From Nymphaea colorata (Eukaryota), in the NCBI RefSeq assembly GCF_008831285.2, contig NC_045138.2:22878001-22942000 (forward strand): a DNA stretch of 64,000 nucleotides, read 5' to 3'. The notes below the pieces were generated by a model. It saw only the letters and a program-made list of their open reading frames with translations. It did not search any database and was not told the DNA's origin. Positions 18,961 to 63,583 of the stretch are shown piece by piece. Positions within the stretch are counted from its first letter, which is position 1, and the number at the start of each line of letters is the position of its first letter. A program made the position numbers and the translations under genes.

Positions 18961-19958
18961 ATTCTCTCCGTATAAATTTCGAGTTGCAGACGGCGAAGAA
19001 GCGGAGGAAGAAATGAACTGTAGAAACAGGGGGCGACGGCAGGAAGAAAGGAAGGGGAGAGGAGAGAGGGGAGATGGAAGAAGGGAAGAGAAGGCACCCG
19101 AGGGCTGCCCTAACTAACTCCGCACCTTTTAAAGCGGTGTCAATGGATTCGGATCGGTCTACTACCGACTCGCTTTTAAGAGCTATTTCTGTAAGAATCG
19201 GACGACTCGCCATCCGATTTTGGCCATCAAAACCTCCGTGCCTTTTCAGAAAAATTTACCATTTACTATGTTAAATTTTTTTGTGTGCATCAAACGGATC
19301 AAGAAGGTCATGATAAAAACATTTGCTTAGCATGTATTTATTTCTCTCTCTCTCTCACTTTATCTATTTATCTCTCTATATCAACTACTTGATTCCCCAT
19401 AGGCCTCTAGATGTTTGTAAATTGATTGTAAAAATATGTACGTAAATTGTTAGGCTTATTCATATTAAGTTCTTGATAAAAGCTTTTATGAAAGGAAAAA
19501 AAAAGAAAAAAATGGTTAAAAACTTAAGAATGGAGATTAATTTTACACTTTAAAACAGTTAGAACCAAACTCTGGAGAGTTTGATACGAGACATCAATCC
19601 ACGAGTCAGTCCATTCTTGATTGAGTCACCAAGTTTTTGTGCTGACTCGTTTGGGTTCTGACTTGGCCCAACGAGAGGACGATCCCGAGCCGACTCTGAG
19701 GCCGACCCGCCGAGTTTGCCAAAAGGTAATGTTCGTTTCGAGATTCAACTTTCTGGAATTGGGGAAAATGGAAATCCGTTTCTAAAAGGATTTTATGTGT
19801 GCATAAAAAGTGGAAAATCATTTTTATGTTTGATGGGCATGGTTGAAAGTTGGAAACTAAGCACCGCTTTGAAATTGTTAGAAAATTGTAGGTTATTCTC
19901 GTAATGTCTTATAAAGGGTTAGCATAGCTTTAAAATTTTCTAAAAAACCGTGGGGTGT

Positions 19959-39600: not shown

Positions 39601-42600
39601 TCAGGGTGAAGTGGGTTCACACCCAGCTCGAGCGTCTCGACCGACCCCGCCCTTGGAACGGGCGTTGATGGACTTGGGTGACCGTGCGAAACGGTTCCCC
39701 TTTCATGTTGTACATATTTTTACTTATTTTTACTTTAATCTTTTATTGTTGTAACCTATTGGACTGTGAATCGGTTCGGCCAGTTGGAACCAGTTCGGCT
39801 GAGCAAACCGGCTCACTCATGCGTTAAAACGCATGAACCTCATTGTACACGATATACATGTTTTATGAAGAACCTGGTTTCTCTCTCCTCTCTCGCGATT
39901 TTCTCTCTCCTCCCACCCGAGGGCTCACGCTCGCCATGGCGAGGGTTGTCTCCCCCGCTTCTCTCTCTCGCGTCCCTACCTCCTGACGCCTCTTCCTCTC
40001 CTCGATCCTCAGCTTCTTCTATCTTTCCCACGCATCCCTTATCTCCGATGCTTTCTTCTGATTTCCCCCGTGAGGTCCAAGCTTCTCCTGTCGCCCTCCA
40101 CTGCAGCTAAATGCTGCTGCTTCACCCGCAGCCTCCACCGCATCACCTCCTCCTAACCAGCCTGCAGATCTGCTCAGCGTCACCAAGGGACAACGCCGTG
40201 GCTTCTGCCCCTCTTGGCGACGCCGTGGATCATCCCTGAGAAGGATCTGACTGCCCTCAACTGCCAACGAAACCCCAATGAAGTCAGACGCACGCGGGCT
40301 GCTGTCCGCCCCTGTTCCTGCCTCATCTTCCTATCCAGCCTGCTGAATCCCTTCCATCTGAACCAGGGAGCATCGCCGTTGGCTTCTGCTCCTCTGGGCG
40401 ACGCTATGGCTCACCTCTGAGCAAGACCCGACAGCTCAAAGAGGCTGAAAACCCCACCCGACGGATTTCTGATCTCTCAGGTTGCTGTCCGCCTCTTTCA
40501 ACGCCTCCTCCACCCGAACAGGCAGCTGATGCTCTTCCATCTGAACCAAAGGACCTCGCCATTGCCTTCCTCACCTCTGGGCGATGCCGTGGGACCTCAC
40601 TGAAGAAGACCCGACAGCTCCAAGCGATTGACAACCCACCTGCCGGAATTCTGAGATCACTGAGCTGCTGTCCGCCGCTGTCCCTGCCTCCTCCACCCGA
40701 GCAGCAGCCGAAGCGTTTCCAGCTTAGCTAAGGGAACCTGCCGTTGATCTTCTCCAGCCCTGGGCGACATCAGAGATCATTTCTGAGGAGGATTCGATCA
40801 TCCACCGCTGCCAAGGGACCCTCCGACGGAAACCAGACCTCGCTGGTGGCTCTCCCTGTGAACTCCGCCTGCTTCCCAGCCGGTTCCCCTGTTTACGATA
40901 GCCATTTGGGGGAAAACCCCAAATCGGGTGAAGGATCGACTCCTTCCTCATTCTCTGTTGCTTGATCCTCGTTTCTGCCTGTGGACTGCACGAACAGAAG
41001 GCTGGAAATGGGTTGCTGGGTTGAGCAGTGAGCTCTGTTTCACGCTGCAGACCAGACCCCAACCTGGTTAACGAATTGGCCATGGGGTGGTCAGATGCCC
41101 CCCATACTCTGGGCGTCCCAACGTAAGGGTCATGGCCTCCTGCCCACCAAGTTTCAGCCTCATCCGCCACCGGATTGAGCTGCTGTGAATTTCTGAAGGT
41201 CGCTCCCCTGTTCTGCCGTTTCTCCCCTGTTTCGGGTATCAGTCCAGCAGCTTGAGGAAGCAACGACTGGACCTTAGGGTGGGCTTTTGCCCCCCATATT
41301 TTGGGCGTCTACAGATAGGTATCTCAGGCAGCTGCACACCAAATTTCAGCTCAATCCGAGCTTCGAGCCATTTTTGGTGAATTTTGCAAGGTTGAGCTCC
41401 CCTGTCCTGCGCCTGAAGTTGAACTGAGCCTCTGCCGCCTGTAACAGTTCTGAACTTAAATCCTTCAACGACCCTGCCTTGGGGTGGGCATTTGCCCCCC
41501 AAACTTGGGGCGTCCCTTGGTATCTATCCTGGCGACCTTCCTACCAAGTTTCACCCCCATCCGACGTCGGGGTGAATTTCTGGGATTTTTCGAAGGTCTG
41601 CTGCCCTGTTCAATGACAGAGGGTCTTCCAGCAGCCTGTCGCCTGTGACAGTCCAGGGGCTTCTCCAGGGGCTTGAACTCGCATGCTGGGTTCTTTCCAG
41701 CTCCACCTTGGCCCATCCTCGGATAACTATCCGGCAGAGCTGCTGTCCAAAACTCGGCTCAATCGGACAGTTCTATGATTTATGGTGTCCTTTGGAAGCG
41801 GCTAGACCCCTGTCTACGCCTTTGAACCTGAGCACACCAGTCTCGACCGTGGGAAGCTGGAGCACTTGCTGCCCTGCAGCGCGCCTGCGCCGGCGTTAAA
41901 CGGCGCTTGCCTCACCCCACTGACGTCTGCTCCCGGGGTTTATCTTCGCACACGGTGACGCTTCTCTACTCCTTGGGACTGTTCTTGCTTGTTTGATTAC
42001 GCATTGACTGCTTGGCTTTCTATTGTGAGGGCTGCTCGACGAGCCGCTAGGTACCAGCCGTGAGGAGCTAGGAGCAAAGGCTGCTTGGCAGCGCGCATGC
42101 ACCGTCGTTAATCGGTGCCTGCCTCACCCCTTACGTTCGCTCCTGGGGTCCCTATTGCCGTCTGGTGAAGCTCCTCTACTCTCGCCTCCTTTATTCCTGT
42201 AAATTGTGTTCTTGGTAATTGCCCTGCTGCTTGTGTTTGAGGGCGTTTCCAAGGAGCGACAGGGGGCGTGAAGGAAGCTGGTAACCGCCTGATTCGCCGT
42301 CCGTTGCTGGATACCGAGGGCCTTGGTCTTCTGCCCTTGGTCGTGCCGCTGGGCTAGCCCCAGCGAGGTTTGCCTCACTCTCCCCCTGTAGAACGGGGTG
42401 GGTTTACTCGCTTTCAGCCTTAACTGTGATCCAACCTATGGGCTGGGGAATGGTTTGTACGCATAGGCATGAATGAATGGTTTGTTGAGTGAGGCTGAGG
42501 GCATTCTTGTACGCAACGGTTGTAAGGCCTTGAACCCATCTGTGTAGTAGGTTCAGACCTAGAATAGGCGGGAAAAGCCCTCCTTGTACCCTTACCCTGG

Positions 42601-45600
42601 GGGATTCACTGGGTTTGTCCCCAGTGGGGTAGAAACTGAATTGTAATCTTGGTATCTCCGAATCCGAAAGCATTCCCGAAGAGATCTTGGGAGGTCAGGA
42701 CGGCAGCGCAGTCTGGGTTTTCTGGACAGCTACAGTGCCCGCAGCTTGCGTCCTACCAGTAACATAGGTTTACTTGTTTATCCTAGTGAACTCCCTTTTG
42801 TAATAAATTAATAATTCCATCTTTGTTGCTTGATGTACAAAATACTTGAGTAGTTCAATGGTTTGAGACTACTCAACTTTCATTCCTTTTTTTGAAAAAC
42901 ATTTTAAACATCAGCTTTATTATTTAACTATAGTTCATCAAGCAACTGGCAATTCATCAAGTAATTCGCAATCAGCTTTACTAATTGCCACACTCTATGT
43001 CACATGCACTCGCGGAAAAGGACCCTGCACCCGTGTCAATACAGCTTCACTCAAGTTCAGGTATTGGACATGGCAAAATGATAATTAGTATTTTTTGGGT
43101 CTACTTTGATATTTTCTTTGTTAGCCTATATTTTATAGATAAGAAAAAAAATAGATCAATTTTTTGCTTAGAATCCTATATATATGTGTTCCAGCATTCA
43201 AGTTCTTTGAAGCTGCTTCACACCCGGACCCACACCCATGTGACAGCCTGACAGGTCAATAATCTTTTTATGTGAGCCCTCCAACACCTCCACTAAGTCG
43301 CATGCATGGCAACAAAATGTCATTCCTGAGTTTTTTAAGTATTGCACTTTTTGTTGGGTACAAATCAAAATGTTTGTTTTTCCTCAGAATTCAAAAAATT
43401 GAAACATTATACAGAAATAATAAAAAACATTATCAGACTATGAGTCTTTGACTAATTTTCTTCCAAAAAATGATAAATATTGAAAATGGTTAAATATTAA
43501 AAGAAACCAAAAAAATGAAATATAAGAAATGTTAAAAGGGGAGCAAAATCTTGCATACTATCGCAGTATTTTAAAAAGAAAATTCATATGGATGATACTT
43601 CCAAACTATTTCCATCAATTGCACATCTTGTGCTTTATTCTTGTTTGGCAATACTACCACAATATCATGCTTATCTGAATCACTTGACAGAACCAATTAG
43701 GAGGGTTGCCATTTTACATACATCACCCAAGAGAAAGCACATCCGTTTGGATATCTTTTGTCCTCTAAGAGTCTAAAGAGAAAACATGGAAGACATGTTA
43801 TTGTTTCATTTTCTCGTAACTTTTAATATCTAATATTAATGTGATATCCCACATACATAGATGCCAGTTGTCAATGATGATTAAACATGAAATTTGCAGA
43901 TAACTTGTCTTCAACATAAACACAAGTAATTTTTTTGCTATACTTCGTCTCCCAGCTCAGACACAATAAAATTTTTACCCCAAGAATAACTTATCTCCTT
44001 CGTGATTGTTACTTTGTTTGCAACAGATAAGGCATCTAAACAAGTTATCCCACGATTACTTAAGCTAAAACTCAATAATCCACTAAATAATGATAATACT
44101 GTAATTTCCACACATGAATAGAAAACGGAGTATGGGAATCAGAACCAAAAAGTGACCATTTCAAATTTTGGATGAATTGCGAAGCAGTAAATGATAATAC
44201 TGTAATTTCCACACATGAATAGAAAACGGAGTACGGGAATCAGAACCAAAAGGCAACCATTTCAAATTTTGGATGAATTGCGAACCAGTAAATGTGTAGG
44301 CAGTGACAGTGAGAGCTTCTAGTTTTAACTTTTCACTTTTAAGGTGTGTTGAATCTTTTGATACATTGAAAAATCAACCAGGGTGAGGCCCACCCAGGCT
44401 TCCATCTTCTTTTTTTTTTTTCCATAGTTAGTTGATGGGGAGGCCTCCAAATGAAAATTAGGAAAAGCCATAAAATTGAAGTGTACTTTAAGGAGAAGCC
44501 ATCCACAAATTTCTGTGTTACCTTGAACATGACCGTATGAGGAGGATACCCTAGATGAGTCATAACTGGTATCCGACATCCCCTCAGGATGTTAGCACAG
44601 ACAAGCCTAGCATGGCAACTAGGCTCATTTAGGTCATCTGGGCTAAGTTCTTCATAGGTAACCTGCCTTTCGTTGTCGAACACATTGCCTAAGCACTTAA
44701 CAGTGTAGGCATTTTTTTCTTCAACAATCTATATTATTTGTTTCTGTTTTCCTTTTCCTTTGTCCTTCTACTGCTTGAGGCAGATTTTCTTTCCATTTCA
44801 CTATCTTCTTCTTCTACATCAAAAGTAGCTTTCTTCTTTCATGCGTATTTTCTTTTCCTAATTATTTTGTATGTTGCATGTGATATGGCATAGGTTGAAG
44901 ACGCGTTTGTGCAATTATGTCATGATGAAAGACCCAATAAATCTGTGATGAACAATGTTGAAGATTTACGTTCCTTAATATCTTCATTAGACAAGTAATT
45001 TGAAGTTCAAGTTTAGTTTATTAAATACTAGAAATACGAACAGACAATGATGAATGCTAACACAGACGTTTCAAGTTGTGATGTACAATTGTGTTTTCTT
45101 TTAAACTGATAAAAATTTATTTTTCATTGAGAAATGCTGATAAAGCACCAAGTATACATAATTTTATATCATTATGTCCATGTTTTAATGAAAAATTACG
45201 TTTAAATTTTAAAATCTCATGTTTGGTCATAGCTAGATGATGAACCTAAAGGACTTTGAGCACCATTCAATCTGAAATTTGGTCCACATCTGAGATCTAG
45301 ATGTAACATGGCCTAAACACTAGGTCCCCTTAGTTTTCCTCCTCACAATGATATCTTAAGGGCTAAGGCCCTAAACCATTCAGCCCCCTCTCCCGATTTC
45401 TGTGCCTTGTCCCTCTTTCCCCGTAATTCTCTGTGTCTGTCCTTTCCACCTCTATTAAATACTTTCTTCCTCTTCTTCTTCCTCCATCCTCCCTTCTACA
45501 TCATGTCCTATCATGTTGCTATAGCCTTCAAGGCTTCAACTCATCCTCTTGTTGGAAAAAAATCATCTAGAAAGATCCACAAGAGCTCAGATCCTCCATC

Positions 45601-48600
45601 TTAGCCAAATCTCATCTTTCTCCCATGAGAATGGCTCCATCAGTTAGGGAACCACCTCTCCCTTGGAAACTTGGCCAGTGGTACCAGATGTCCGTATCTC
45701 CTTCTAGTATGGCAGCATGGCAGAAATCCTCTTTTGGAGTGAAAAACTCGGAGACTGCAACAGCATATCAAAAGTTAGAAAAGGAGTCTTCACTCCCTTG
45801 ACCCAATCTGGAAACGGGAGAAGGCTGTTTCAACCTTCCCTGCTTGCTCCACAAAATACAGCCAGCAGATTGTACTTTATTCTATCTTTCATGTTTCAGA
45901 GAAAGGAATGGTGATCAGAATTACTGGCTAATGGTGCATTCAGTTAGGTTGATTGTGGTAGAAGCAGCACACTGTTGTTAAAACTTAAAAGTGTTAGGCA
46001 GTGTTTAAAAACTCGCCATGTCAACACCTTGACTTGGCTGACTCGGCTCGGCTGGCCCACTTACCGGGTCAACCCAGTCGGGGGACTCGATTTAAACAAA
46101 AACTCGGTAAGACTCGGTAGAACTTGCCTTGGACTTGGTTGACTCCGCCGAGCCTTCTGTTGAGTTTTTTTATGCAGTGTAATACAGAAAAACTAAAATG
46201 TGCAGGGGGGTTTGAGTAATAAAGCAAGTTATAAAAAAGATGTAAACCTAAACCCTTGTTGGAGTTCTCTTCTTCTCGATGGCAAAAGACGGAGGAGAAA
46301 GACATTAAACCCTTATCTATTGTTTTTCGCCATATTTCCAACGAGAATGGAGATTCCGATGATGCACCTGCATCAACAGAAAAATCAGCTTCTTAGGTAT
46401 GTCATTCTTGTGTTTTTCATTTTATTTTTCCAACATTTATGTTTCCCAATGATTTGGATCGATTAACTTAACCCTTTTAGTTTTTCCGGCAACTTCAATT
46501 TTTTACGATGTGTTCTCTCTCTCACTTTCTAGTATCTCTGTCCTCCCCATTCTTCTCTCCTTATGTTGGTTCATAGTCTTATGGAAGTATTCCCAAACCT
46601 GTCATGCTCTCTCTATGTTTTTCTCTATGCTCTCTCTCTTGTAGCCTCACTCTGTTCCTGCCCCTTTCTCTGTAATTCTCTCTCCCTCCCTCTCGGCTGC
46701 TCGGACTCTCTCTTTGTTCATAGTTTTCATTCTTTTCAAGTTTCAAATGAATGGATATTTTGTTTCTCCTTTATTTCATCTAATTCTCATCATTTTTTAG
46801 TTGATACCGTTGTACTATCTACTTACTGTCTCCCCATTTTTTTTTAAATTTTTATCGTTAGTTTCAACTAAAGGAATATTCTGCTTCTATGGCTTCATTC
46901 TAAACACAAACATGAAAATCTGTAAAGTTCAAACTTGTCTCCATAAAACATTTTTTTTCCAAAAAAAAAAAATGAAATATACTGAATGCTTCAATCCTTT
47001 GTTAAGTTTAACATTCAATATTCACTTTGTAGTTTATTTTCTCAAAAATGAAATTGTACAACTCAGTCTGCCTAATCCTGCCTAGGCTCAAGGCTCAACC
47101 TCTCACCTAGGCTAAGCCTAGGGCTTTAACAACATAGATCTAAAGTCAAATGATACAAATTCCCTACTTTAATTGATTCAAAAAATATACACACCTCTAA
47201 TTCAAAGACAAGAATTAGAAAAAGTGGTCTCTAATCAACCTTTCAGATCATCCATCATCGTTCATTCATTTTGTAAAGGAACAGAGATTTGCAGTTACTC
47301 TGCTTCAATTTTTTTTTTATCATGTGCATGCTTCATACACATGGTTAATTAACCATAACAGCAAACATGATGCAATTTTGAGCCTAAGAGTTGAAAGAGA
47401 ACTTGAATGAACTTGATTTCTCTCTTCCTTGTCCTAGAGATAAGAAGTTCACACATTTATTTTTTGGATCAGAAGATATGTTTAAGTCTTTAAGAGGATA
47501 CAATTATCTCAGCTTTTATTAACTCCAACCAGATGCAATCCAGATTCCAGAATACATGTCTAACAAGACAGAATCTTCCATTACCAATTCGCTGATCTCA
47601 ATTTTTATAATTTTTATTCACCCTAACCAGAAACAAGTCCTTAATGACACCTCTCCCTCTATCTTCAAGAATTCAATCATGGAAATGTGCATAAAAATTC
47701 AAGAAGAAAAAAGGAGGAACCACCGAAATACTTGTCACACATCAGCCAACCGACACATAATCAACTGGCAAACCCAGGTTGACGACACCACGTGCAACTA
47801 GCAAGCAGATAAACTCCTCAAGTTTATCCAATGTTTCACAAGTTGCCCTAAGAAACCAAAATAACAGATGACCAAGAATAGAATTTCATATTAGGAGAAG
47901 CTCCCACTTTCGAAGACAACCCTACAAATACTTAGTCTACTTACAACCGCTTGCCATCAATAAAATGTAACCTATTCACGATTCCGTACCATTATATACC
48001 CCTCTGTTTTCTATCAAAAGACTCTCCAACAGTTCCAGGCCCAAAAGGACATGCTACAGAATCAAAGCAAGTGGTACGTTTTCAGAGAAAGCAACTTGCC
48101 ACTAAAATTAAAATTTTCTAAATTCAGAAGAGTAAATGAACGTCGACATTTTTATAAACCTAACTGGCTGTCATTAAAGACTGAAACCCGGATTCTATTG
48201 CTTCCCGATTTCCATGGAACGCGAACGAGAAACTAATTGTCATCAACGAAGAGCAAAGCCGCCATAAATAATCCCGATCTAGCCCCTCACAATTTGTCTA
48301 TCGATATAGCGCAAGAGCGATGCGAAAAAACTCATAGTTCACAAAATCAGAACATAAATGATCTGAAATTTTGCTTTGCACCTGTAAGTCTTCGGGAAGG
48401 TACTCGTGCTTCATGGACAGATCCATGGCGCGCTTGAGCCGCTGGGTCCGGGCATCTACAACCTCTTTCGGGAGACGAGAAAGGGCTTCCTTAATGTCAA
48501 GGTCGAACATGGGGTCATAGAGATCGTCGTAACGAAGCCCTAAAGAAGAAGACCATCTTGATTAACCGATCCCGCAGGAGAGAGGGAGTCAGAAAGAGAG

Positions 48601-48710
48601 AGGGAAAGAAGCATACCATATTTCTTCAGGCGCTTGGAGATGGCCTTGCAATGCTGGGCAGCAAACCAGTTGCGGGATGGATTCAGGAACGATCTCAAGA
48701 ACGCGTCCAT
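31876..48710 (-). CDS. QCR7: Cytochrome b-c1 complex subunit 7, 122 aa; exons 48710-48617, 48539-48382, 32201-32154, 31944-31876
   Basis: MDAFLRSFLNPSRNWFAAQHCKAISKRLKKY|GLRYDDLYDPMFDLDIKEALSRLPKEVVDARTQRLKRAMDLSMKHEYLPEDLQ|ALQTPFRGYLQEMLAL|VKKERAERDALGALPLYQRTIP*. GT-AG junctions keep frame. Intron 2 is 16.2 kb. Confidence 0.95.
33581..33632. repeat. (CT)n microsatellite
   Basis: Directly visible. Confidence 0.95.
33828..37406 (+). repeat. 5' LTR (3579 bp)
   Basis: Near-identical to 39180-42758 (about 15 substitutions counted by eye, same length). Contains internal ~180-210-bp sub-repeats. Confidence 0.95.
37483..39609 (+). pseudogene. Deleted gag/aspartic-protease polyprotein of the non-autonomous element; one in-frame TAA at 38161-38163
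   Basis: The ORF-track ORFs 37468-38163 and 38239-39609 are in the same frame and separated by a single stop. Contains RTMRMVGSI..VLLDSGAT..DVVLG (retropepsin). Confidence 0.75.
39180..42758 (+). repeat. 3' LTR (3579 bp)
   Basis: Direct repeat of 33828-37406, followed by TSD GTAAC. Confidence 0.95.
42995..43246. mobile_element. MITE of the CTATGTCACAT-TIR family
   Basis: Starts CTATGTCACATG and ends CATGTGACAG, with subterminal CACCCG repeats. Same TIR word as the element in the RPL9 intron. Confidence 0.55.
44089..44290. repeat. 101-bp tandem duplication
   Basis: AATGATAATACTGTAATTTCCACACATG...GATGAATTGCGAA.CAGTA repeated at 44089 and 44190 with few mismatches. Confidence 0.9.
45999..47137. 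mobile_element. Possible hAT-like non-autonomous element or composite
   Basis: Starts CAGTGTTTAAAAACTCG with ACTCGG/CCGAG subterminal repeats and ends CCTAGG..TTTAACAACATAG. No clear TSD. Confidence 0.35.
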
Positions 48711-49179
48711 GGAAGCAAAGCTCCAAATCTCTCCGGCTCTCTGTGTTCTCTCCCTTCTCTCGACCCTTCCGCAAGCCTCCAATTATTATGGACGCTCGGC
48801 CGCGCCCTCCTCCCCTCCTCCTCCTCCCCCGCCGCCCCTAGGGCGTCGTAAATTCGGATCTCCTTCTGGACTTCTATACCCGAAATCCATCTTTGAGGTT
48901 TTTCACTAGCGCTTCGAATTGAACCGAGTCTTTTGAGTTTTGACCGATCTTTCTCAGGTGCGCGCATTTGCACCCCTTTTCTTTTTGTTCAAATTTTCGG
49001 TTGTTTTTCGCAAATTTAATCATGTAAATGCAAAACGTCCGAAGCTTCATATGCTCAAGAAATAATGAAAATATGTTGCATAAATCTTGATACTCTTAAG
49101 GGTTTTAGTTAAGATTAACGATCTTAACTTTCTCACTAGACATTAACTTTTCATTATGTTCTTAAATTTTTTATTTTGC

Positions 49180-51311: not shown

Positions 51312-54300
51312 TCAGACCATGGTTAATTCATCAACTGTGTTCGTACTTTTTGGAATTGATGGGGCCTCATAGGCAGCAAGCTTCTGCCTGATAGCTGCCA
51401 ACTCCTCCCCAGAGTTGCAGATGTAGGCTGCAGCCTGTCTTCCTGATAAAGTTGCCCCTTCCATACTGTCAATGTAATCCTAGAGATTTGCAAGCATGAT
51501 GAGTTAGCTGTTGTTTTAGCGCGTTAACCCAATTATGATAAAAAATTGCCAGAAGTTCTAAAGTAAAACAACTGACATATAAAAGAGCTTCACACGTTCA
51601 ACAAGCATACACCTAAAGTAGCAATCAAACCGTGTTAATGGTAAGGTTGGCAAAATCATGAGCCGTGATCACAATGATATAGCCAGTTACTCCAACTTAC
51701 AAAGGTTAACATGAGCCAGCCATGCAAGCACATACAAAGAAAAGAATCGGAAACATGTTTCATGAAAGGATAATAGATGCTGCAGCCTAAACAGAGAGAG
51801 TGGTAAGAGGTGTGTCACCAACCTGTTTCGTATAAGAACCAGCAAGAAAGAAATTCTTTACAGGCGTCCTTTGATCAGGTCGAAAAGGATCCATTCCAGG
51901 ACCCTCACGATATAAAGATTGCCCAATTTTGACAACTGAAGACCATATAACTTGTAATCCTTGGGAAGATGGAAACAAAGACAAAACCTGACGAGCAAAA
52001 AAATGCAGAGTTAAGCTCCCTTTTTTCTCACAGATGAGAATGAAGCTCCTACTGGTTCCTAGCATTAATAAAAGTCCATAAAATTACGGTGGGCAAACCA
52101 TCATATGGTACTTAAACCAAATAACATGTCAATCCATAAAGATATTGCAGAGAGTAATATACCAGGTAAACAAGTGGTGTCATGAAGCACAAGCAGGGAA
52201 AAAATATTTTAAAAACAAGCATCGAGGATTTAGGGAAGCAGTGTGAGGCAGGAACGCAAATTGGAACTTTGGGGAAATGCATTTTAGTAAAGGCAGGAAC
52301 AATTTTCCGTAGCAGTTGCTGACACCCATGCCCCCAACTTTTTACATTTAAGATTTGAAAGGGCGTAGGACATACATGCTGCTAACTATTTTACTTCATT
52401 TTACACATCTGTATACCTGTCATCAACATTTACCTTAGACGAATAGCTGTCAAGCTCGACATTGTAGAGTTGAATATAACAGATACAAAAATTTGGTGAT
52501 TTTTTTTTTCTCTTCTTTGACAAACTTTAATAGCCGAAAGAATTTCAAAATGTATTAAACCTATCATCACTTACTACTTACTAGCTAACATATCCATCCC
52601 AAAGGCAAAGCACATGCATCTAGATTCTAGCCTTCAATGGGTATTTACAATCTCTGAAAAGAGACCCAAATATTACTACTGAACATGTGTCATTAACAAA
52701 ACCAGGCCAGAGCACTTGCACCGCACCTATCTATGTTTGTGCACTTAAGCCAAGCATGAATCTGACATGCTGGTTATAAACCCTATTCTACTGAAAAGAA
52801 CATGTGTATACATCCACACATCTATTCAGAACAAAGTGGAAATCTGGTAAGGACTTTCTTGAGCATCTTACCTGCTTCTGTACTCGATCAATAATTTCTT
52901 CATTCGGAAAAGGCATGTATGGATCACCCGGTGTCAGCACAGCTCTAGAAAGTAATATAAAGACTACTAGTTAGATGAAGAATTAAAAAAGAAACATAGA
53001 ACAAGACTAACCAACAAAACAAAGCTAACTGGTAAAGGAAATAGGAAGACATAGGTTGATTGATATTCATGATCGACAGAGATTATACCTACAGGCTACA
53101 AGAATAACTAAATGAAATTATAATGTGGAATATACCAAATGCTGAACAAGGTTCATCATTAAAGTACTCCACAGTGTATCCAACAACCCCAAAATTCAGC
53201 CTTTATAGAAGAAGCATCCTTACTGGATCAGTGAGCCTTGCCCTTCAATATAGTAATCCTCTGGCGAAGTGAGTGCCAGGTCAGCAAAGCAAGAAAAATC
53301 TGCATCTGGGGTGTAAAGGAGATTATCCAATCCAGCCGCTTTTCTTAGTTGCCTAACGCAGACAATATTAGAAATTAGCTCAATGACAAAAATGATTATA
53401 AAGCCAGAAAATGACTTGAAGTGATACTATAATACAACACGACCACATGAATACAAATAAAAAAAAAAAGTTTTCTACAGTATGATGTTGAATAGCCAAA
53501 TATACCTCGATTTTTCCACATTTTGAAGCTCTGTAACCCAACCATTATATCTAAGTTGAACAGTGATAACTGGCACTCCGACCAGCTTGTAGATGTTGTC
53601 AAAAGCTTCCCATTGTCTCCACTTCAATGGAAGCAATTTCTTTATTCCAGGGACATCACAAGCTATGACAAGGGGGTTGAGAAAAACAAATTAGATCCTG
53701 GATCTTCCCCAGCAATATAATTACACAAACAAGATTTAGATGTTCGATAAAAACCTGCAACATATGCATCTGCTTGCACCGTTTGCTTGCTTGTCGCCTG
53801 CATACAAACAAAACTGAATTTAAGCACCATATCGTCAATGTTTGGAACAGAATAATGTGACTAAAGATGCTCTAAAGATATTTAGATTACGTTTTCCTAG
53901 TTTTTTCAGTCCAGACCGTCTTGTTCCATTCAATAAAGAAAATATCCATTGAAAAAGAACGAAAAGAGAAATGAAAGGTATCAAAATATTCATTTAGACC
54001 TGGAGAAGAATACTGGAAAAAAAATCTGAACCAACACAGATGGTTTAGTAGCCTTTGCTTATGTGCTATTCAACCAAATCACTGCCCATATATGCCATAC
54101 TTCATAAGAAGGCTTGATCCTCCATTTACCTCCATTAACATAATATATTTCTCCTTGCTCTACTCAGATGCAGTAGGATACTCAGAAGAATCTGACTAGA
54201 GAATGAGATTAAAAAGACAATGATAGTCATAGCTGTGAAGGTTTAAGCATACATTCTTTCAACAAAAAATTTGTTCATTTCATGATTAGACATTGAGAAG

Positions 54301-57300
54301 GTATGTCACACCCTCCAAGCAAATTAATCCAATAAACATATTCATGCGAAAGGATTGAAAACACAGACCTACCTTTGACAGTGCAAGGCCTGTAACATAC
54401 GTTTCCCCGTCAATGGATTTATCAAAATAAATGTCTCTACATCCCCATCTAAGATGAAATCTACAGCAAGAGGATCAGAGATGCACCGTCAGCACATGAG
54501 TACCAGAGAGCAAATGTTAAAGAACGAAAACCACACCTCAAAAGATTCCCTACCTTCCTCCCTTACTAATGATGTACTTCTGTATGGGACCACTCAAGAA
54601 GTTATCAGGAGAACCTTTCAACATACGCAGCAGGGATGCCTCCGTTTTAGTGGCGAAGAAGCCAAAAACAGTGAGCATACAACGGGCACTTATATTATCA
54701 CAATCAATAAATCCAAGGGCATAAGCAACAGGATCCCACATTCTTTGGATACTTAAACGCGTTCCACCTTTGGACAAAAACCACTCGGAGAAGCTAATCT
54801 GAGATTTTACACAAGATCAAAGACTCAATAATATGATAACACTCAAAACAATCAAATACATAAATAGATCAAAGCTGGATGCATGAGAATGACATCATTA
54901 GCCTGCCAGATGTCTAACACATGTCACCAACAGGAGTACCATAAAGGCATAAACTAAACAAAGGTCCAACGTTAAAGAACAATGGAACAGAATTAGATAA
55001 AGCATGCTGAATGGGAAAACTGAAAAGGAAACATAATTTTGTTATGGGTAAAAAGGAAACATAATTTTGTTATGGGTAGTCATTTGAAATTTAGACAATA
55101 TATACATCTGAGATATTTTGTTTTAACCCTAATCTCTATATAAAATGAGATTAGGAGTTTAATGAAATACCAATTATTCTCCCTCTATCTGTCTTCCTCT
55201 CTCTCCCTCTCTTAGTCTCATGTCCCCTCTTTCTTCTTTCTTCTCTCTTCTCTCCCTTTCTCTTCTCTTCTCTTTTCTTCTCTCCTCGTGTCCATCTTCT
55301 GGCTTAATGTAGAGTCATAGACACAACATGGTATCAGAGCAAAGACCATCTCTGGGAGGAGGTAGCGGCAGATCATTGACAGACATTACAGTTGTGTTGT
55401 TTATGTGCACGACAAAACATGGAAGAGGGGTCGCGGTTGCACAATACCACTGAAGGATTGCCAAAGGATAATGAAACTCAATGTTGCAAAGGCGAACACA
55501 CTCAGACTTCGAGTCTCTCTCTGCTCGCAGCAAAGGGAAATTCAGAAGTTTGCACAAGGCAAGAAAAATTGCTCAAAAGACCGATGCCTGGTAAGGGGCT
55601 TGGTGGTAACAATTTATAAACAACGAGTGATGGTACAATAATTCAGTGAATAAATTCGCCTGCAAAAGTAGCACGCACTGAGCGATGCTTTAAAAAAAGA
55701 AAACAATGACAAGATAAGCTTTACAAGATTCGCCAGTACAATGATCAAAAGAAGACAAAGATGACTCATGACTAAGACTTCTGCTTTCGTTGCAATGATC
55801 AGAAGGCGACAGATGACTCATTGGGTTGCTTTTTGGCTCTGAATATATTTGTGTTGGAGTTTTGTCGTTATTCTTCTTTTGTTTCACTGCTTTCCGCCTC
55901 GGATTCCAATATTCGTCGCACAGCAAATTCATGGTGGAGGCAGAAACCTTTAGTCTGGACACGACAGTTCCGACATTTGCGCCTTTCCTTTGTGATTTTT
56001 TCTAGTGTCGTGCAGCTTTCTTCAAACTCCTTTTGGGATATTCTCATATAGGAATTCTTCATCTTGAAAGATTGCGACTTCGGGATAATCAACAAAATTG
56101 ATTCTCTGCATTTTTCGACACAGTGCTTCTTCCCACTTTGGACTTGCAATAAAATTAAAAAATTCTCTAGATACGTTGTTAGCATATAATTGTCTTCTGT
56201 GGAGGATTAGATTTTCCAATACAGTTTTGTCAATGGCCCATAATAAAAGTTCTATTTCGAATGAGGTCCATTTTAGGTTATTGACAATGCAGGTAATTCT
56301 TCCTCCAGCTGTGTAGTAAAAATCTAGATTTGGATAGTGACCTTCTACAGCGTCTGCAAAGTCTGGAATTCTGGATAAAGTTTTCTAATCTTTTGACAAA
56401 CCTTCCATCTTTGCTCTGGTGTGTCTACTAGCCAGTCTTCTCATTGTCTGCCAGTTGATCTCATCATCTTGCATTCTCAGGTGAGAGCGTCTGGTAACGA
56501 ATGATGTACTCTTTTTACCAGATCAATTGTAAAATCATACTGGGATACAGAAATTGCTACCAAGCAAATCTTTGTAATTTTGGACTGCTGGTAATTTTTC
56601 TCTTGAATAGTACGGACAGGTTGTGAAGTCGTTCTGAGTATGAATTTTTCGCCAATCAAGTAAGGGTGAAATTTTTCCAACCCTCTGATCGCTGCAAGGA
56701 TTTCTTTTTCTGCATGCCAATAATTGATTTCATTAGTTTTGAATTGCCCGCTAGTATAAAAGCATACCTTTTCTTGGTTGCCATCTTTCTTTAGCAGAAC
56801 TGCTGCCCATGTGTCACTTGATGCATCTGTGGATAGGACATAGAGCCCGACAAAGGCAGGTTCTAGCTCTGGCAGTCTTCCCTTAATGAGATTACTGCTT
56901 TTGTAGCCGCTTTAGTCCATTCATATGACTCATGATGCATGACCTTGCGGATTGCCTGTGTTTTCTGTGATAGATTTTGAATATAGTTTCCGACATAATT
57001 GAGGCATCCAAGGAACCTTTCGCACTGTAGCTTGTCTTCGAGCTGATTTGGAAATTGCTCGATTTTCTTCAGCACATGATCTTGCATGGTTATTTTTCCT
57101 TCTTTGAGCTTGATGTCGAGAAATTCAATTTCTCGTTTGGCCAGTTGAAATTTTTCTTCTGTTTTGGACAGCCCTATGTCATGCTATCGCATATTTCTGC
57201 GAAAATTGTGAGATGCTGCAAATGTTCATCTACAGTTTCTAAGACTATCAAAAAATCATCAATATAATTAATGATAAAATCATAACCCTTGAAAATTTCA

Positions 57301-60300
57301 TCCATTCGTCGTTGGAACTGTGATGGTGCATTTTTTCTCTCCAAATGGCATAACCAGCCATTCGTACAAGCCAATAGGAGTGTAGAAAGTCGTTTTGTGT
57401 GTCTTCTTCGGCAATCTTAATCTGATGATAATTAGACTTGCAATCAAATTTAGAGAAAATCTTGCCTTGAGCCGCCCTTTGTATCAAGACTTCTTTGTTC
57501 GGTAACGGCCATTTTATATCTACAGTCACGCTGTTCAGAGGAATGTAATTAATTACCATTCTCGCTTTTCTTCTTTTGATTTCAGCATGATTTCTAACTA
57601 TGACGCTTGCGCTTGCATAGTGTGATTCGATTTTTGAATCAAACCTTTTTCTTCCAATTCATGTATTTGAGATATAATCTCTTTTTTGTCTAGTTCAGAA
57701 CCCACAATAGGTCTGCTTTGTACAGGAATGTTGTGCATAGTTGGTATATGTGCTGTAGGGGAGTCCTTGTTCCAAAACTGTAACGGATGTTCAACACAAC
57801 AGGACTTTAATCGTTTTACCACCCGTGTGAATTCAGGCAAGCAAACTATTTTTTGTCCTCGTAAAAGATTTATGGCCTTAATGGCCTTGATCCTTTCGAC
57901 TTTTTCTTCAAATTCAAGCTCATGTTTCATGATTTGAAGTAAAGTCATGTTTTTGTTTCTGTCCTCTTTGTTTCTTTTTTTGTTTTGCATTCTTTTGAAA
58001 GAGGCAGACAACCTTGAAACAACTTGTTGTTCATTTCCTAATCTGAACACAATACAGTCCCTGCATATGGTATAGGGGCCTATTTCATCCAATGTTACAG
58101 ACCCTAATCCGATGTCATGTCCGGCATCATCTATCTGTACAAAATTTGCACTGATCGTTTTTTTCTCCTATTTTAACCGGGACATTTAAGGCAAAATTAT
58201 GAAGTCTTCTTTCTCCGTTCATTGTTTCGACTCTGGTTCCTTCGGGATAATATAGCCAGTCGCTAATTATCACCTTTTTGCAAAAATTCATATTTGCACC
58301 AGTGTCGATGAAGGCTTGTCCTTTTTTCCATTTTCCTTTTTTATCTGCAGCTATTTGAACTAGGATAATTACAGAAAGATCAAATAAGGACATCTTTTTG
58401 ATCTATTTGATCTCAGAAGTTTTGAAGCTACTTTTTGGTGTAAAATTCCAGAAATTGATAGGAGTTGTACCTTTTTCCTGTATTGCGTTTGCAACCTTTT
58501 CTGAGACCGCTCATTTCTCTTGTTGTTTTGGGGCTATTGGGACTTCATCTTTTGAGTATACTCTATTATTTTCTGAACCTGATTCTTCTGAAGTTGAGTC
58601 GTCTGAGTGAGTGTTCTTTTCACTGTTGTTACTATGAATAATCTCATAGGGACTGGTTGATGCAAAATTGTTGCAAAATTCACTTTTGCATTCTAACTCG
58701 TCAGATTCTGATTCAGATTCTGTTGAGATCATGACTTCTTTTCCTTTTTTTGCTACCATGCAAATGTGTCCTGCTGCTTCTGACGATGATTCTGTAAGGA
58801 TGCTCATTGTTTCATCATCTTCTTCTCCACTTTCTAGATAGAACACTTTTTTATTTTTGAGGCATTCTTCAAATTCTGCCTCATTTTCTATCAGATCCCA
58901 GTCTTTTTCGATTTCTGGGACATCAAACATCATCTTGATTTGTCGAGGAGCTCTGTTTGGGCATTTATTTGCATAATGCCCCTACCTTCGGCAGGCGAAA
59001 CACCTTTCGTCCTTTTTTTTGTCACTATTCCTCCTTCTCTGAAAGAATTTGTATGGCTTGAACGGCCTCCTCGTTTTAGTTCGTCTGAACCTTGGTTTGA
59101 ATCTTTTTGGCAGATTATGCTCTTCTGCTCCATCAATCTGACTGCAAATATTTTTTCCAACTTTAGGCAGTTCAGTGTTTGCCTTAAGTCGGTAACAGAG
59201 CTTTTTAATCTATTGTTGGACAATCTGTTGTACATCAACCAGATTCAAACTTTCGACCAGGATATTTTTATGTGATAGTTCGTCTAGCACAATGTTACCA
59301 AGTGATTCTCGTAACGAAGCAAGGAAGGACATACCGATTGTTGAGAGGGCATGTGCGCCTAAGCGGTATGCTTGAATTTGAAGAAGAAGTCGATATGATC
59401 AAGGCTATTAAGGCCATAAATTTTTTACCAGGACAAAGAATAGATTGCTTGCCTGAATTCACACGGGTGGTAGCTTGTTGTGTTGAACATCCGTTACAGT
59501 TTTGGGACAAGGACTCTCCTATAGCACATATACCAACTATGCACAACATTTCTGTACAAAGCAGACCTATTGTAGGTTCTGAACTAGACAGAAAAAAGAT
59601 TATATCTCAAATACAAGAATTTGAAGAAAAAGGCTTGTTTCGAAAATCCGAATCACACTATGCAAGCGCAAGCTTCATAGTTAGAAATCATGCTGAAATC
59701 AAAAGAGGAAAAGCGACAATGGTAATTAATTACATTCCTCTGAACAGCGTGACTGTAGATATAAAATGGCCTTTACCGAACAAAGAAGTCTTGATACAGA
59801 GGGCGGCTCAAGGCAAGATTTTCCCTAAATTTGATTGCAAGTCTGGTTATCACCAGATTAAGATTGCGGAAGAAGACATACACAAAATGGCTTTCTACAC
59901 TCTTATTAGCTTGTACGAATGGCTGGTTATGCCACTTGGACTAAAAAATGCACTATCACAGTTCCAACTACGAATGGATGAAATTTTCAAGGGTTATGAT
60001 TTTATCATTAATTATACTGATGATTTTTTGATAGTCTCAGAAACTGTAGATGAACATTTGCAGCACCTCACAATTTTCGCAGAAATATTGATTTTATCAT
60101 TAATTATACTGATGATTTTTTTATAGTCTCAGAAACTGTAGATGAACATTTGCAGCACCTCACAATTTTCGCAGAAATATACGATAAGCATGGCATAGAC
60201 TGTCCAAAACAGAAGAAAAATTTCAACTGGCCAAACGAAAAATTGAGTTTTTCGGCATCAAGCTCAAAGAAGAAAAAATAACCATGCAAGATCATGTACT

Positions 60301-62143
60301 GAAGAAAATCGAGCAATTTCCAAATCAGCTCGAAGACAAGCTACAGTGCCAAAGGTTCCTTGGATGCCTCAATTATGTCAGAAACTATAGTCAAAATCTA
60401 TCACAGAAAACACAGGCAACTAGCAAGGTCATGCATCATGAGCCATATGAATGGACTAAAGCGGCTAACAGAAGCAGTAATCTCATTAAAGGAAGACTGC
60501 CAGAACTGGAACCTGCCTTTGTCGGGCCCTATGTCCTATCCACAGATGCATCAAGTGACATATGGGCAGTCGTTCTGCTAAAGAAAGATAGCAACCAAGA
60601 AAATGTATGCTTTTATACTAGCGGGCAATTCAAAACTAATGAAATCAATTATTGGCCTGCAGAAAAAGAAATCCTTGCAGTGATCACAGGGTTAGAAAAT
60701 TTTCACCCTTACTTGATTGATGAAAAATTCATACTCAGAACAGATTCACAAAACTTGTCTGTACTACTCAAGAGAAAAATTACCAGCAGTCTGAGAAAAA
60801 TTACCAGCAGTCCAAAATTACAAAGATTTGCCTGGTGGCAATTTCTGCTATCCCAGTATGATTTCACAATTGATCTGGTAAAAGGGATACATTATTCGTT
60901 ACCAAACGCTCTCACCCGAGAATGCAAGATGATGAGATCAACTGGCAGGCAATGGGAAGACTGACTAGTAGACACACCGAAGCAAAGATGGAAGGTTTGT
61001 CAAAAGATTAGAAAACTTTATCCAGAATTTGCAGACGCTGCAGAAGGTCGCTATCCAAATGTGGATTTTTACTACACAACTGCAGGAAAAATTACCTGCA
61101 TTGTCAATAACCTAAAATGGACCTCATTCGAAACAGAACTTTTATTATGGGCCATTGACAAAGCTATATTGAACAATCTAATCCTCCACAAAAGACAATT
61201 ATATGCTAACAACGTATCTAGAGAATTTTTTAATTTTATTGCAGGTCCAAAATGGGAAGAAGCACTGTGCCGAAAAATACAGAGAATCAATTTTGTTGAT
61301 TATCCAGAAGTCGCAATCTTCCAAGATGAACTCTGGTATAAGAATATCCCAAAAACAAATGAGTTTGAAGAAAGTTGCACGACACTAGAAAAAATCACAA
61401 AGGAAATGCGCAAATGTTAGAACTGTCGTGTCCAGACTAAAGGTTTCTGCCTCCATCATGAATTTGTTGTGCGACGAATATTGGAATCCAAGGCGGAAAG
61501 CAGTGAAACAAAAGAAGAATGACGACAAAACTCTGACACTAATATATTCAGAGCCAAAAAGCAACCCAATGAGTCATCTATCTTCTGATCATTGCACCGA
61601 AAGCAGAAGTCTTAGTCATGAGTCATCTTTGTCTTCTTTTGATCATTGTACTGGCGAATCTTGTAAAGTTTATCTTGTCACTGTTTTCTTTTTTTAAAGC
61701 ATCGTTCAGTGCGTGCTACTTTTGCAGGCGAATTTATTCACTGAATTATTGTACCATCACTCGTTGTGTATAAATTGATACCACCGAGCCCCTTACCAGG
61801 CATCGGTCTTTTGAGCAATTTTTCTTGCCTTGTGTAAACTTCTGAATTTCCCTTTGCTGTGAGCAGAGAGAGACTCGAAGTCTGAGTGTGTTCCCCTTTG
61901 CAACATTGGGTTTCATTATCCTTGGGCAATCCTTCAGTGGTATTGTGCAACCGCGACCCCTCTTCCCTTTATTCAGATCTGACATAGAGGACAAAGATTT
62001 GCTGTCGTCAAATAATCTGGTGGCTGTTTGTTTATGTCAAATTTCAATGATAGTTAATGTGAACATCGCTTCTTGTAAAATTGTCTTCTATTATTATTCT
62101 AGTAAACAAGAACAAGTATTAAAAAGAAAAAACGTATATATAC

Positions 62144-62194
<51 letters not shown>

Positions 62195-63583
62195 TTAAAT
62201 CCAAAAATAACTTAAATTATTCAAAGTAAAAGAGTGCTTGTAACTATAAGTGAACAGGCACATGTACACACATACTTTTATGAAAAATCACAAGCAACAA
62301 GAAAAAATGTGAAGACTAAAAAACTGCAGAAAAACATAAGAAAAGAATTCTGTCTCAAAAGAATAATAAGAACAAGAAAGAAAAAAAGGAACAAAAATTT
62401 AAGTTGACAATGAAAGCCTATGCTATTTATTGCCTAGCAAACCTAGGCATCTAGGTGATATTCTAGGCATTTTCAAATGGCAGGTCACCTAAAATCAGCT
62501 AGCCCAGACAACAGAGATCCAAGGCCAGCCTTTGACAACATGGACTCAAATGAAAACTTTGTGCTTTAACTGTGAGTTGAAAATCAAACTATTGACAGTT
62601 CACGAGATCATCTATAAAGTTACTTTTTCAAAGTCAAAACACTACTTGTTGTCAACCTCTCTAAAAAAAAGTAAGGTTACATGTAGCACAGAGGAAAAGC
62701 TTCATCAGATTATGTGGACGTATATGTATCTTACTTATAGTCATTACATACTTGATATATACATATGTACACATAGCCTCACATTTATCTTGTAATTTTG
62801 AATTTGTTTTTCCTGTTTTACTGTAGTCTTACTGTTCTTTCTTCTGTATTTCTGTACACCCAATTAGTGGCTGAATGTGCGCCATTGCAGCTAGCTCCTC
62901 CTTTCCTCTTGTTATATATATAAGGGTCAAGGACAACCTGTCTCTTGTATTATGGCTTTTGATGCCATTTGTTTGGTGATCAAGTTGATTACTATTCTGA
63001 TTAGGATAATGTGTTCTGGATAGTTAGTCTTCCAGAGTCTTAAGGGTTTCTTCCTCAGGTTCATGTGAACCTATTGTTGTGTTTGATTCCTTGTGAATCT
63101 TGTTGTGTGCCTTCCCATTCTATCTGGCTACATAAATGGCTAGTTTAGCTAGCCAAAAGAAAATAGAAATTCCCACAGTTACTGCTATCTTTTGTAGCAT
63201 AAGAAAAAGAGACTTTTTTGTACTAGATATGCATATCTATTATGCATTTCAGGGATAATAATAAAAATCACATTTTTATTATTTAATTTGTCATTATCTA
63301 TCTTTTATGCTTGCAATTTGTGAGAGGTTAAGTGTGATACTTCACAATCTGAGAGAGGTAAGTCTGTGCTTTGGACCCATCAATTGCCTTTCCAAGGAAT
63401 ACAACTTTGTCTCTTATGAGTCATATCTAAGGCTCTGTAAATGTATCTTAGATTACTCATGCAATGGATTCCACTTACACTATCAAGGCCCCGAATGTCC
63501 TTCATCGCACCTTCAGGATCAATAAGTGCCTTCACGATTGGACTTGTTGCAAGAGCAAATGCATTCCTTGCTTTGTCATATGT
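51312..63583 (-). CDS. ZDS: Zeta-carotene desaturase, 3' part (5' exons lie outside the window); exons 63583-63479, 54798-54554, 54460-54373, 53797-53755, 53662-53506, 53352-53224, 52944-52872, 51987-51823, 51479-51312
   Basis: [71 protein letters not shown]..|FHLRWGCR..|..[13 protein letters not shown]|..[21 protein letters not shown]..|VLTPGDPY|..[44 protein letters not shown]. All junctions are GT-AG and in frame. Confidence 0.97.
55023..55078. repeat. Perfect 28-bp tandem duplication at the left edge of the intronic insertion
   Basis: AAAAGGAAACATAATTTTGTTATGGGTA occurs twice. Confidence 0.95.
55068..55340 (+). mobile_element. Short LTR-like segment (261 bp, TATA box) plus tRNA-Met primer-binding site
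   Basis: TGTTA...CAACA at 55068-55328, CTATATAAA at 55136, a CT-rich leader, then TGGTATCAGAGC at 55329-55340. Could be a copia-type LTR with PBS or a caulimovirid intergenic region. Confidence 0.65.
55421..59369 (-). mobile_element. Endogenous caulimovirid copy 1: capsid C-terminus with Zn knuckle, acidic linker, aspartic protease, RT, RNase H, C-terminal extension (pseudogenised)
   Basis: Minus strand: basic stretch and CFACRR*GHYANKC (59002-58961), AFIDTGA (~58310), [83 protein letters not shown]. No integrase. Several stops and frameshifts. Confidence 0.9.
59370..62134 (+). mobile_element. Endogenous caulimovirid copy 2, inverted: RT, RNase H, C-terminal extension, 3' region (pseudogenised)
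   Basis: ORFs 59272-60126, 60284-60964 and 61061-61420 carry [53 protein letters not shown]. Positions 59370-61966 are the reverse complement of 57919-55421. The viral origin of 61967-62134 is inferred. Confidence 0.9.
59997..60180 (+). repeat. 92-bp tandem duplication of the RT YxDD region
   Basis: TGATTTTATCATTAATTATACTGATGA...GCAGAAATAT at 59997-60088 and 60089-60180. Confidence 0.95.
62135..62193. repeat. Compound (TA)(TG)n(AG)n microsatellite at the right edge of the viral insert
   Basis: Directly visible. Confidence 0.9.
62682..63132 (+). mobile_element. Probable solo LTR (~450 bp) in the ZDS intron
   Basis: Inverted termini TGTAGC...GCTACA and an internal TATATATAAG. Flanks are only approximately duplicated (TACA / TAAA). 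Confidence 0.55.

What the first reader, a model, noticed from the sequence alone, without database searches (positions are those of the whole stretch)
55421..61966. Natural intronic hairpin of pararetroviral RT-RNase H sequence inside the ZDS gene: candidate heritable antiviral siRNA locus
Seen: two ~2.5-kb caulimovirid segments in inverted orientation around a 1.45-kb spacer, wholly inside the 8.7-kb ZDS intron (54799-63478), with all flanking exons intact and in frame. Perfectly complementary runs of about 60 nt exist, for example 55620-55681 versus 61706-61767. Established: long fold-back RNAs are cut by plant DCL2, DCL3 and DCL4 into 21-24-nt siRNAs without needing RDRs, and endogenous pararetroviruses have been proposed to give homology-dependent resistance. 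Inference: ordinary ZDS transcription would make a ~2.5-kb stem covering the most conserved viral genes, so a carotenoid-pathway gene could double as an antiviral RNAi cassette. It may instead just be a silenced accident of integration.
Basis: partly seen in the sequence, partly recalled or inferred. Interest (0 to 1): 0.88.

Follow-up and report, generated by a model that had tools for sequence, protein, structure and literature searches.

The report
Fold-back viral hairpin in water-lily intron
A broken piece of plant-virus DNA lies as a 2.5-kb mirror-image pair inside an intron of a water lily carotenoid gene, where it would likely fold into double-stranded RNA and be cut into small silencing RNAs, a set-up already described in tomato and soybean; small-RNA output and any antiviral role are untested here.

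Summary
The structure is real. Two caulimovirid arms (55421-57919 and 59370-61966; 146 substitutions in 2471 aligned columns, 15 indels) face each other inside the 8680-nt GT..AG intron of a ZDS gene. The nine exons in the window give residues 187-576 of the Nymphaea colorata protein exactly. One contig in another public run carries the loop/arm joint. The 'spacer' is also viral and continuous with the left arm. The arms look like one viral molecule folded back on itself: up to 4 shared bases at the turn, both outer ends at the same base, and neutral divergence since (dN/dS 0.60; neutral expectation 0.60), roughly 2-7 My. The virus groups with Welwitschia mirabilis virus 2, and related copies are numerous in two DNA runs. 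ZDS-sense RNA is predicted to form the stem. I could not reach small-RNA data, and intron RNA reads were few (24 of 11.6 million). The base pairing shows no sign of selection. Verdict: a good new TSA candidate in an early-diverging angiosperm, with a clean fold-back origin; not a new kind of system.

The parts
55421..57919 (-). Left arm: caulimovirid protease-RT linker, RT, RNase H, post-RNase H region, TATA-like box and following ~190 nt; several frameshifts and in-frame stops
57920..59369 (-). Loop: single-copy viral sequence continuous with the left arm (coat-protein C-terminal part, zinc knuckle, acidic spacer, aspartic protease), broken by frameshifts and stops
   Evidence: tblastn of P0140 (N. 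thermarum) and P0129 (WMV2); weak Peptidase_A3 hit E 0.026; P0140 has a Caulimovir_coat_dom hit
59370..61966 (+). Right arm: inverted copy of the left arm, with a private 92-nt tandem duplication (59997-60180), a private 21-nt extra segment near 60772 and one stop after RNase H
59370..59373 (+). Fold-back point: up to 4 bases that fit both the continuation of the coat-protein gene and the start of the right arm (mirror of 57916-57919)
   Evidence: P0140 aligns to 59374; an X17 contig of another copy fits up to 59373 and then leaves (table 8); junction printed
61769..61775 (+). TATA-like box of the right arm (mirror at 55618-55612 on the minus strand); both point outward, away from the hairpin
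   Evidence: motif scan; function inferred
54799..63478 (-). ZDS intron that holds the hairpin, 8680 nt, GT..AG; the other seven introns in the window are 92-884 nt
63479..63583 (-). ZDS exon upstream of the long intron (starts at residue 187 of P0003)
51312..54798 (-). Eight ZDS exons downstream of the long intron, through the stop codon
55119..55340 (+). Left flank: 210-nt TGTT..AACA segment with a TATA-like box followed by a tRNA-Met primer-site-like 12-mer; looks like a short retrotransposon LTR, opposite in sense to the left arm; no second copy in the window
   Evidence: primer-site motif recalled, element type inferred

Best explanation
One caulimovirid DNA molecule likely folded back on itself and integrated into a water lily ZDS intron a few million years ago, leaving a 2.5-kb inverted repeat that ZDS transcription would likely turn into a long RNA stem and that Dicer-like enzymes would likely cut into 21-24-nt siRNAs, as at tomato TSA loci. 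Shown: the inverted repeat, its viral nature, its place in an intact GT..AG intron, the neutral pattern of arm divergence and the many related copies. Inferred: (1) origin by fold-back, because the + strand from 55421 reads as viral minus strand down to the coat-protein gene, turns at up to 4 shared bases and copies itself back to exactly the starting base, with unrelated flanks on both sides; (2) read-through by ZDS pre-mRNA, since both viral TATA-like boxes point away from the stem; (3) dicing and silencing of related endogenous copies in trans. Retention looks passive rather than selected at the level of base pairing.
For: Arms 94.1% alike, transitions 109 vs transversions 37. dN/dS 0.60 (bootstrap 0.41-0.91) over 605 codons equals the simulated neutral value 0.60 (0.41-0.98); changes at codon positions 1/2/3 are 39/36/40; three left-arm stops in RT-RNase H are not shared by the right arm. 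At 7 of 25 listed sites both arms share a base where other copies show another (16 sites are left-arm-only changes, 2 fall in gaps; the list is the tool's best-supported subset of 407 rows). Both arms end at the same base with different flanks and no target-site duplication; another locus in run X21 and five contigs in X9 also leave the sequence at 55421. Run X9 (DNA?, other organism label and study) has one contig joining 59396 to 57892 on opposite strands (depth 5.7, 53 letters on the shorter side). Predicted folding. Family is multi-copy: 485 and 737 contigs laid, 372 and 677 of them at 90-99%; OTU 1 has 23 RT copies in N. colorata (PMC13308828 S9). Precedent: 12 of 22 tomato TSAs are intronic, transcribed on the host gene's strand, with weak RNA-seq signal and 22-nt siRNAs (PMC9868043).
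Against: No small-RNA data were examined. Only 24 of 11.6 million RNA reads of run X21 lay on 55300-59400 (15 at 99% or better; 13 of 30 bins; both mate directions, also in the loop), and 3 of 12.1 million in X22, all at 90-95%: too few to tell pre-mRNA from DNA carry-over. No excess of G-U-keeping changes on the ZDS-sense strand (50 vs 59) and no better-kept segment (permutation p = 0.47). Transitions are mildly enriched at CG/CHG (7.4% vs 5.0%, p = 0.04), which fits a methylated repeat. PMC9868043 also reports inverted-repeat EPRVs without RNA or 22-nt enrichment. What fixes the outer end at 55421/61966 is not shown: no primer site or AATAAA lies there in viral sense. The segment RT-C+RNase H alone gave a ratio of 0.46. 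A DCL2 gene in N. colorata itself was not seen in the passages read.
Confidence: 0.55

Rival explanations
1. Inert accident: the hairpin is methylated, spliced out and degraded, yields at most heterochromatic 24-nt siRNAs acting on itself, and is tolerated because splicing is unharmed.
For: Neutral arm divergence and no pair-keeping bias; CG/CHG transition excess; very few RNA reads; non-TSA inverted repeats exist in tomato; 99% of gene-overlapping florendovirus inserts in grape are intronic without known effect (PMC10377300).
Against: TSA introns also give weak RNA-seq signal and are methylated in all contexts; 953 fully paired 22-nt windows remain on the ZDS-sense strand; a host gene with an intact frame should transcribe the intron.
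Confidence: 0.3
2. Selected antiviral cassette: the plant keeps the hairpin because its siRNAs suppress related endogenous copies or a living virus of the same lineage.
For: Persistence for an estimated 2-7 My in a core metabolic gene; arms cover RT-RNase H; many 90-99% copies as possible targets; a tomato TSA siRNA cleaves a reporter in trans.
Against: No sequence signature of selection on pairing or on any segment; no living cognate virus known from my searches (best named relative 59.5% over 168 RT residues); presence across species not established.
Confidence: 0.12
3. The inversion was made after integration by host replication or repair (template switching), or by two separate insertions of near-identical virus, not by a pre-formed fold-back DNA. 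This concerns origin only and is compatible with any of the functional readings, so its probability is not additive with theirs.
For: Endogenous caulimovirids often show tandem and inverted rearrangements (PMC10377300); short shared bases at a junction also fit host repair; PMC9868043 holds that repeats arise 'at integration or chiefly afterwards'.
Against: The duplicated part stops at the same base on both sides and takes in no flank; the neutral codon pattern argues against two diverged strains.
Confidence: 0.35
4. Assembly artefact (palindromic long-read chimera).
For: The published N. colorata assembly is PacBio/Canu (PMC7015852); no single record laid spans both arms.
Against: 6% transition-rich divergence and arm-private duplications; loop/arm joint in a contig of run X9.
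Confidence: 0.03

Closest known systems
Tomato TSAs, 'transcriptionally competent siRNA areas' (Valli et al., Mol Biol Evol, PMC9868043; abstract, sections 6, 8 and 9 and passages read; supplements not read)
   Same: Endogenous caulimovirid sequence in inverted repeat, inside a spliced intron, to be transcribed from the host promoter on the host strand; arms from coding and non-coding viral parts; related copies elsewhere in the genome.
   Different: Host is an ANA-grade angiosperm, not a eudicot; virus is of the WMV2-like lineage, not solendo-, florendo- or caulimo/soymovirus; siRNA output, the defining TSA feature, is untested here; arm divergence suggests 2-7 My, whereas tomato TSAs were absent from S. 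pennellii (2-3 My).
Soybean caulimovirid-derived long inverted repeats making DCL2-dependent 22-nt siRNAs (Jia et al. 2020; seen only as cited in PMC9868043 and PMC10377300) and soybean/tobacco TSA-like loci
   Same: Long inverted repeat of viral origin as a primary siRNA source.
   Different: Described as oversized and highly rearranged in soybean, short and without repeats in tobacco; this locus is one simple hairpin.
Caulimoviridae subclade B.1: Welwitschia mirabilis virus 2 and OTU 1 (PMC13308828; passages and part 1 of 2 of S9 table read)
   Same: Coat protein-zinc knuckle-protease-RT-RNase H order without integrase; RT groups with WMV2 (97/94) and with an N. thermarum protein.
   Different: 59.5% RT identity to WMV2 is below the paper's 62% OTU line; the post-RNase H region has no match to WMV2 or in a database search; no movement-protein part in this fragment.
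Hairpin (snap-back) DNAs of cauliflower mosaic virus reverse transcription (recalled; not found in searches)
   Same: Minus strand that turns and copies itself back to its start, giving two arms with a common open end.
   Different: Known as free replication by-products; an integrated example is my inference, and the identity of the open end is not shown.

Membership tests
TSA (PMC9868043) | Endogenous pararetroviral sequence | tested here: met
TSA (PMC9868043) | Inverted-repeat arrangement able to form a stem | tested here: met
TSA (PMC9868043) | Lies in a spliced intron or long non-coding RNA | tested here: met
   GT..AG intron between exons that give the annotated ZDS protein; spliced reads themselves were not observed
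TSA (PMC9868043) | Transcribed on the host gene's strand | tested here: inconclusive
   24 of 11.6 million reads in X21, both directions
TSA (PMC9868043) | Abundant siRNAs on the arms, enriched in 22-nt, DCL2-dependent | not testable with these tools
   no small-RNA run was offered; N. colorata libraries exist
TSA (PMC9868043) | Complementary targets among other endogenous copies | tested here: inconclusive
   hundreds of 90-99% contigs in X9 and X17; no siRNA-level matching done and no genome held
TSA (PMC9868043) | Cleavage of a target in trans | not testable with these tools
   needs a bench assay
Caulimoviridae (endogenous) | Coat protein/zinc knuckle, protease, RT, RNase H in order, no integrase | tested here: met
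   no integrase Pfam hit in 18 segments scanned
Caulimoviridae (endogenous) | RT groups with caulimovirids, apart from Ty3/gypsy | tested here: met
   23-row tree, caulimovirid side 98/97
Caulimoviridae (endogenous) | Movement protein | not testable with these tools
   that part of the genome is outside the fragment; the nearest named relative has it
Subclade B.1, OTU 1 (PMC13308828) | 62-65% or more RT identity to the OTU 1 references | not testable with these tools
   references not held; the five OTU counts read for N. colorata in S9 sum to the 121 of S8, and OTU 1 (23) is the only clade B entry, so OTU 1 is likely
Welwitschia mirabilis virus 2 OTU | 62% or more RT identity over 150 residues | tested here: not met
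   59.5% over 168 residues of a degenerate copy

The most novel reading that the evidence does not exclude
The locus is a snap-back reverse-transcription intermediate of an ancient caulimovirid lineage, captured whole in an essential gene's intron, and has since served as a constitutive 21/22-nt siRNA source against its family. Viral replication errors would then deliver ready-made hairpin RNAi cassettes in one step, explaining how TSAs are born and extending heritable antiviral hairpins to the base of the angiosperms.
Probability: 0.2. Interest if true: 0.72.

Novelty: new member of a known kind. Interest (0 to 1): 0.42.

Why it matters
Whether endogenous pararetroviruses give heritable resistance is still mostly argued from tomato and soybean. 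This locus is a single clean hairpin with a built-in control (a viral loop that should yield few siRNAs), in a sequenced early-diverging angiosperm for which small-RNA libraries already exist, so the central test needs only remapping. Its geometry also gives a testable account of how such repeats arise.

Tried and rejected
No whole genome is held, so copy number, empty orthologous sites and ZDS copy number were not tested. Exon coverage and spliced reads were not obtained, so intron reads have no exon baseline. Run X17 shows many related copies but no listed loop/arm joint; contigs cannot show absence. Scans of viral and metagenome contigs found no relative. The post-RNase H region found no homologue among proteins of 83-265 residues. 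Rfam: 0 matches in 43000-64000. The 176 nt at the arm's outer end do not fold better than shuffles (z -0.31). The flanks share no second LTR and no target-site duplication (best non-microsatellite matches E 0.4 or worse). OTU 21 (two copies, Nymphaea only) was considered and dropped: it is clade A, while this RT groups with WMV2. Ty3/gypsy origin rejected. Earlier scan notes: nothing relevant. Literature searches (7 papers; 9, 8 listed) showed no paper naming this locus; most hits were seen only as listings, and supplements of PMC9868043, of the two bioRxiv papers and files 13-14 of PMC13308828 were not seen.

Full report
Observation. The inverted repeat is there as described. Self-BLAST gives arms 55421-57919 and 59370-61966. 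The right arm has a private 92-nt tandem duplication. This is far beyond chance and unlike a sequencing palindrome. Run X9 (DNA by guess, a different organism label and study) holds one contig that passes from 59396 to 57892 on the opposite strand, which is the loop/right-arm joint, and pieces identical to the left arm. It is one contig at depth 5.7 with 53 letters on the shorter side, so it supports but does not prove the whole structure.

Host gene. The exon at 54556-54798 is 100% identical to Nymphaea colorata and N. thermarum ZDS, and the residues that separate the two species match N. colorata. Nine exons give residues 187-576 of P0003 exactly, with eight GT..AG introns; the hairpin intron is 8680 nt, the others 92-884 nt. 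The first 186 residues lie outside the window. The gene is on the minus strand.

The virus. Pfam finds RT and RNase H and a weak caulimovirus protease hit, and no integrase, in 18 segments. The best hits among 1.84 billion representatives are the Welwitschia mirabilis virus 2 polyprotein (52%) and two N. thermarum proteins (76% and 84%). One of these aligns across the loop into the left arm, so loop and left arm are one 3.95-kb viral piece: coat-protein end, zinc knuckle, protease, RT, RNase H, a post-RNase H region and a TATA-like box. A 23-row RT tree groups the sequence with WMV2 (97/94) inside the caulimovirids (98/97). PMC13308828 places WMV2 in subclade B.1 (passages); its S9 table gives OTU 1 as the only clade B lineage in N. 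colorata, with 23 RT copies. OTU 1 is therefore likely but untested. Runs X9 and X17 lay 485 and 737 contigs over all 30 bins, mostly 90-99% alike, so close relatives are numerous.

Origin. The arms descend from one molecule. Over 605 codons dN/dS is 0.60 (0.41-0.91), the same as a neutral simulation with the observed transition bias (0.60), and the changes fall 39/36/40 on the three codon positions. Three left-arm stops in RT-RNase H are not shared, so decay came after duplication. At 7 of 25 best-supported sites both arms share a base that other copies do not show. Read along the + strand, the element is viral minus strand from 55421 to 59369, then turns at up to four shared bases (59370-59373) and returns as plus strand to the base that mirrors 55421. 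The flanks differ and show no target-site duplication. Other loci also leave the sequence at 55421 (X21, 3 reads; X9, 5 contigs). A host duplication would not be expected to stop exactly there. I therefore infer a fold-back viral DNA that integrated as a unit, like the hairpin DNAs of cauliflower mosaic virus (recalled; searches found no text). What defines that end is unexplained: no primer site or AATAAA lies there in viral sense. With Ks 0.9 at 107 Ma (PMC7015852) the arms split about 7 My ago; a retrotransposon-like rate of 1.3e-8 (recalled) gives 2.4 My.

Function. On the ZDS-sense strand 2375 of 2471 columns can pair, the longest helix is 94 bp and 953 22-nt windows are fully paired. The MFE of the inner 2.7 kb pairs 571 of 631 right-arm bases with the left arm. 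Both viral TATA-like boxes point outward, so the stem needs host read-through. Direct RNA evidence is thin: 24 of 11.6 million reads in X21 (15 at 99% or better, both directions) and 3 of 12.1 million in X22, with no exon baseline. No small-RNA run was reachable. Nothing suggests selection on the stem: G-U-keeping versus breaking transitions are 50 to 59, divergence is even along the arms (p = 0.47), and CG/CHG sites are mildly enriched for transitions (p = 0.04).

Comparison. PMC9868043 (abstract, sections 6, 8, 9 and passages) describes 22 tomato TSAs, 12 of them intronic and nearly all inverted repeats, which give about 80% of uniquely mapped 21-22-nt pararetroviral siRNAs, depend on DCL2, and in one case direct cleavage of a reporter. 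It reports similar loci in soybean and tobacco, and also inverted-repeat EPRVs without this signature. The present locus has the TSA anatomy; the defining siRNA output is untested, so it is a candidate member that would work like one. Nymphaeales small RNAs have a prominent 21-nt peak and N. colorata libraries exist (10.1101/2020.04.25.061721, passages); DCL2 is reported for seed plants in general (10.1101/2022.01.18.476847, passages). I found no paper naming this locus, with the limits given under Tried and rejected.

Verdict. Real feature, known kind. Best reading (0.55): a fold-back integrant that ZDS transcription likely turns into an siRNA precursor, drifting neutrally. Inert relic 0.30, selected antiviral cassette 0.12, artefact 0.03. 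What is new is the host lineage, the virus lineage, the age and the clean geometry.

Noticed in passing
window 33821-42761: Young LTR element: two 3589-nt direct repeats 99.5% alike around a 1.76-kb interior with a primer-site-like motif and a retroviral protease fragment; no RT seen, so probably non-autonomous.
   Followed up: partly
window 55119-55420: Short LTR-like segment with TATA-like box and tRNA-Met primer-site-like motif, 80 nt from the left arm's outer end; the viral hairpin may have landed in a small retrotransposon remnant. Low depth in X9 and X17 over its last part suggests it is not part of the virus family.
   Followed up: partly
window 55421-55551: RNA reads in X21 from another locus carry only this 131-nt end piece of the element, with other sequence on both sides (3 reads each side); this bin is also among the deepest in X9 and X17.
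   Followed up: no
window 48301-48800 (minus): Gene for the cytochrome bc1 14-kDa subunit (UCR_14kD) just downstream of ZDS.
   Followed up: no
window 18511-19113 (minus): Ribosomal protein L6/L9-type gene fragment.
   Followed up: no
window 14250-15310 and 17227-17730: Degenerate tandem repeats, about 70% alike, in two blocks.
   Followed up: no
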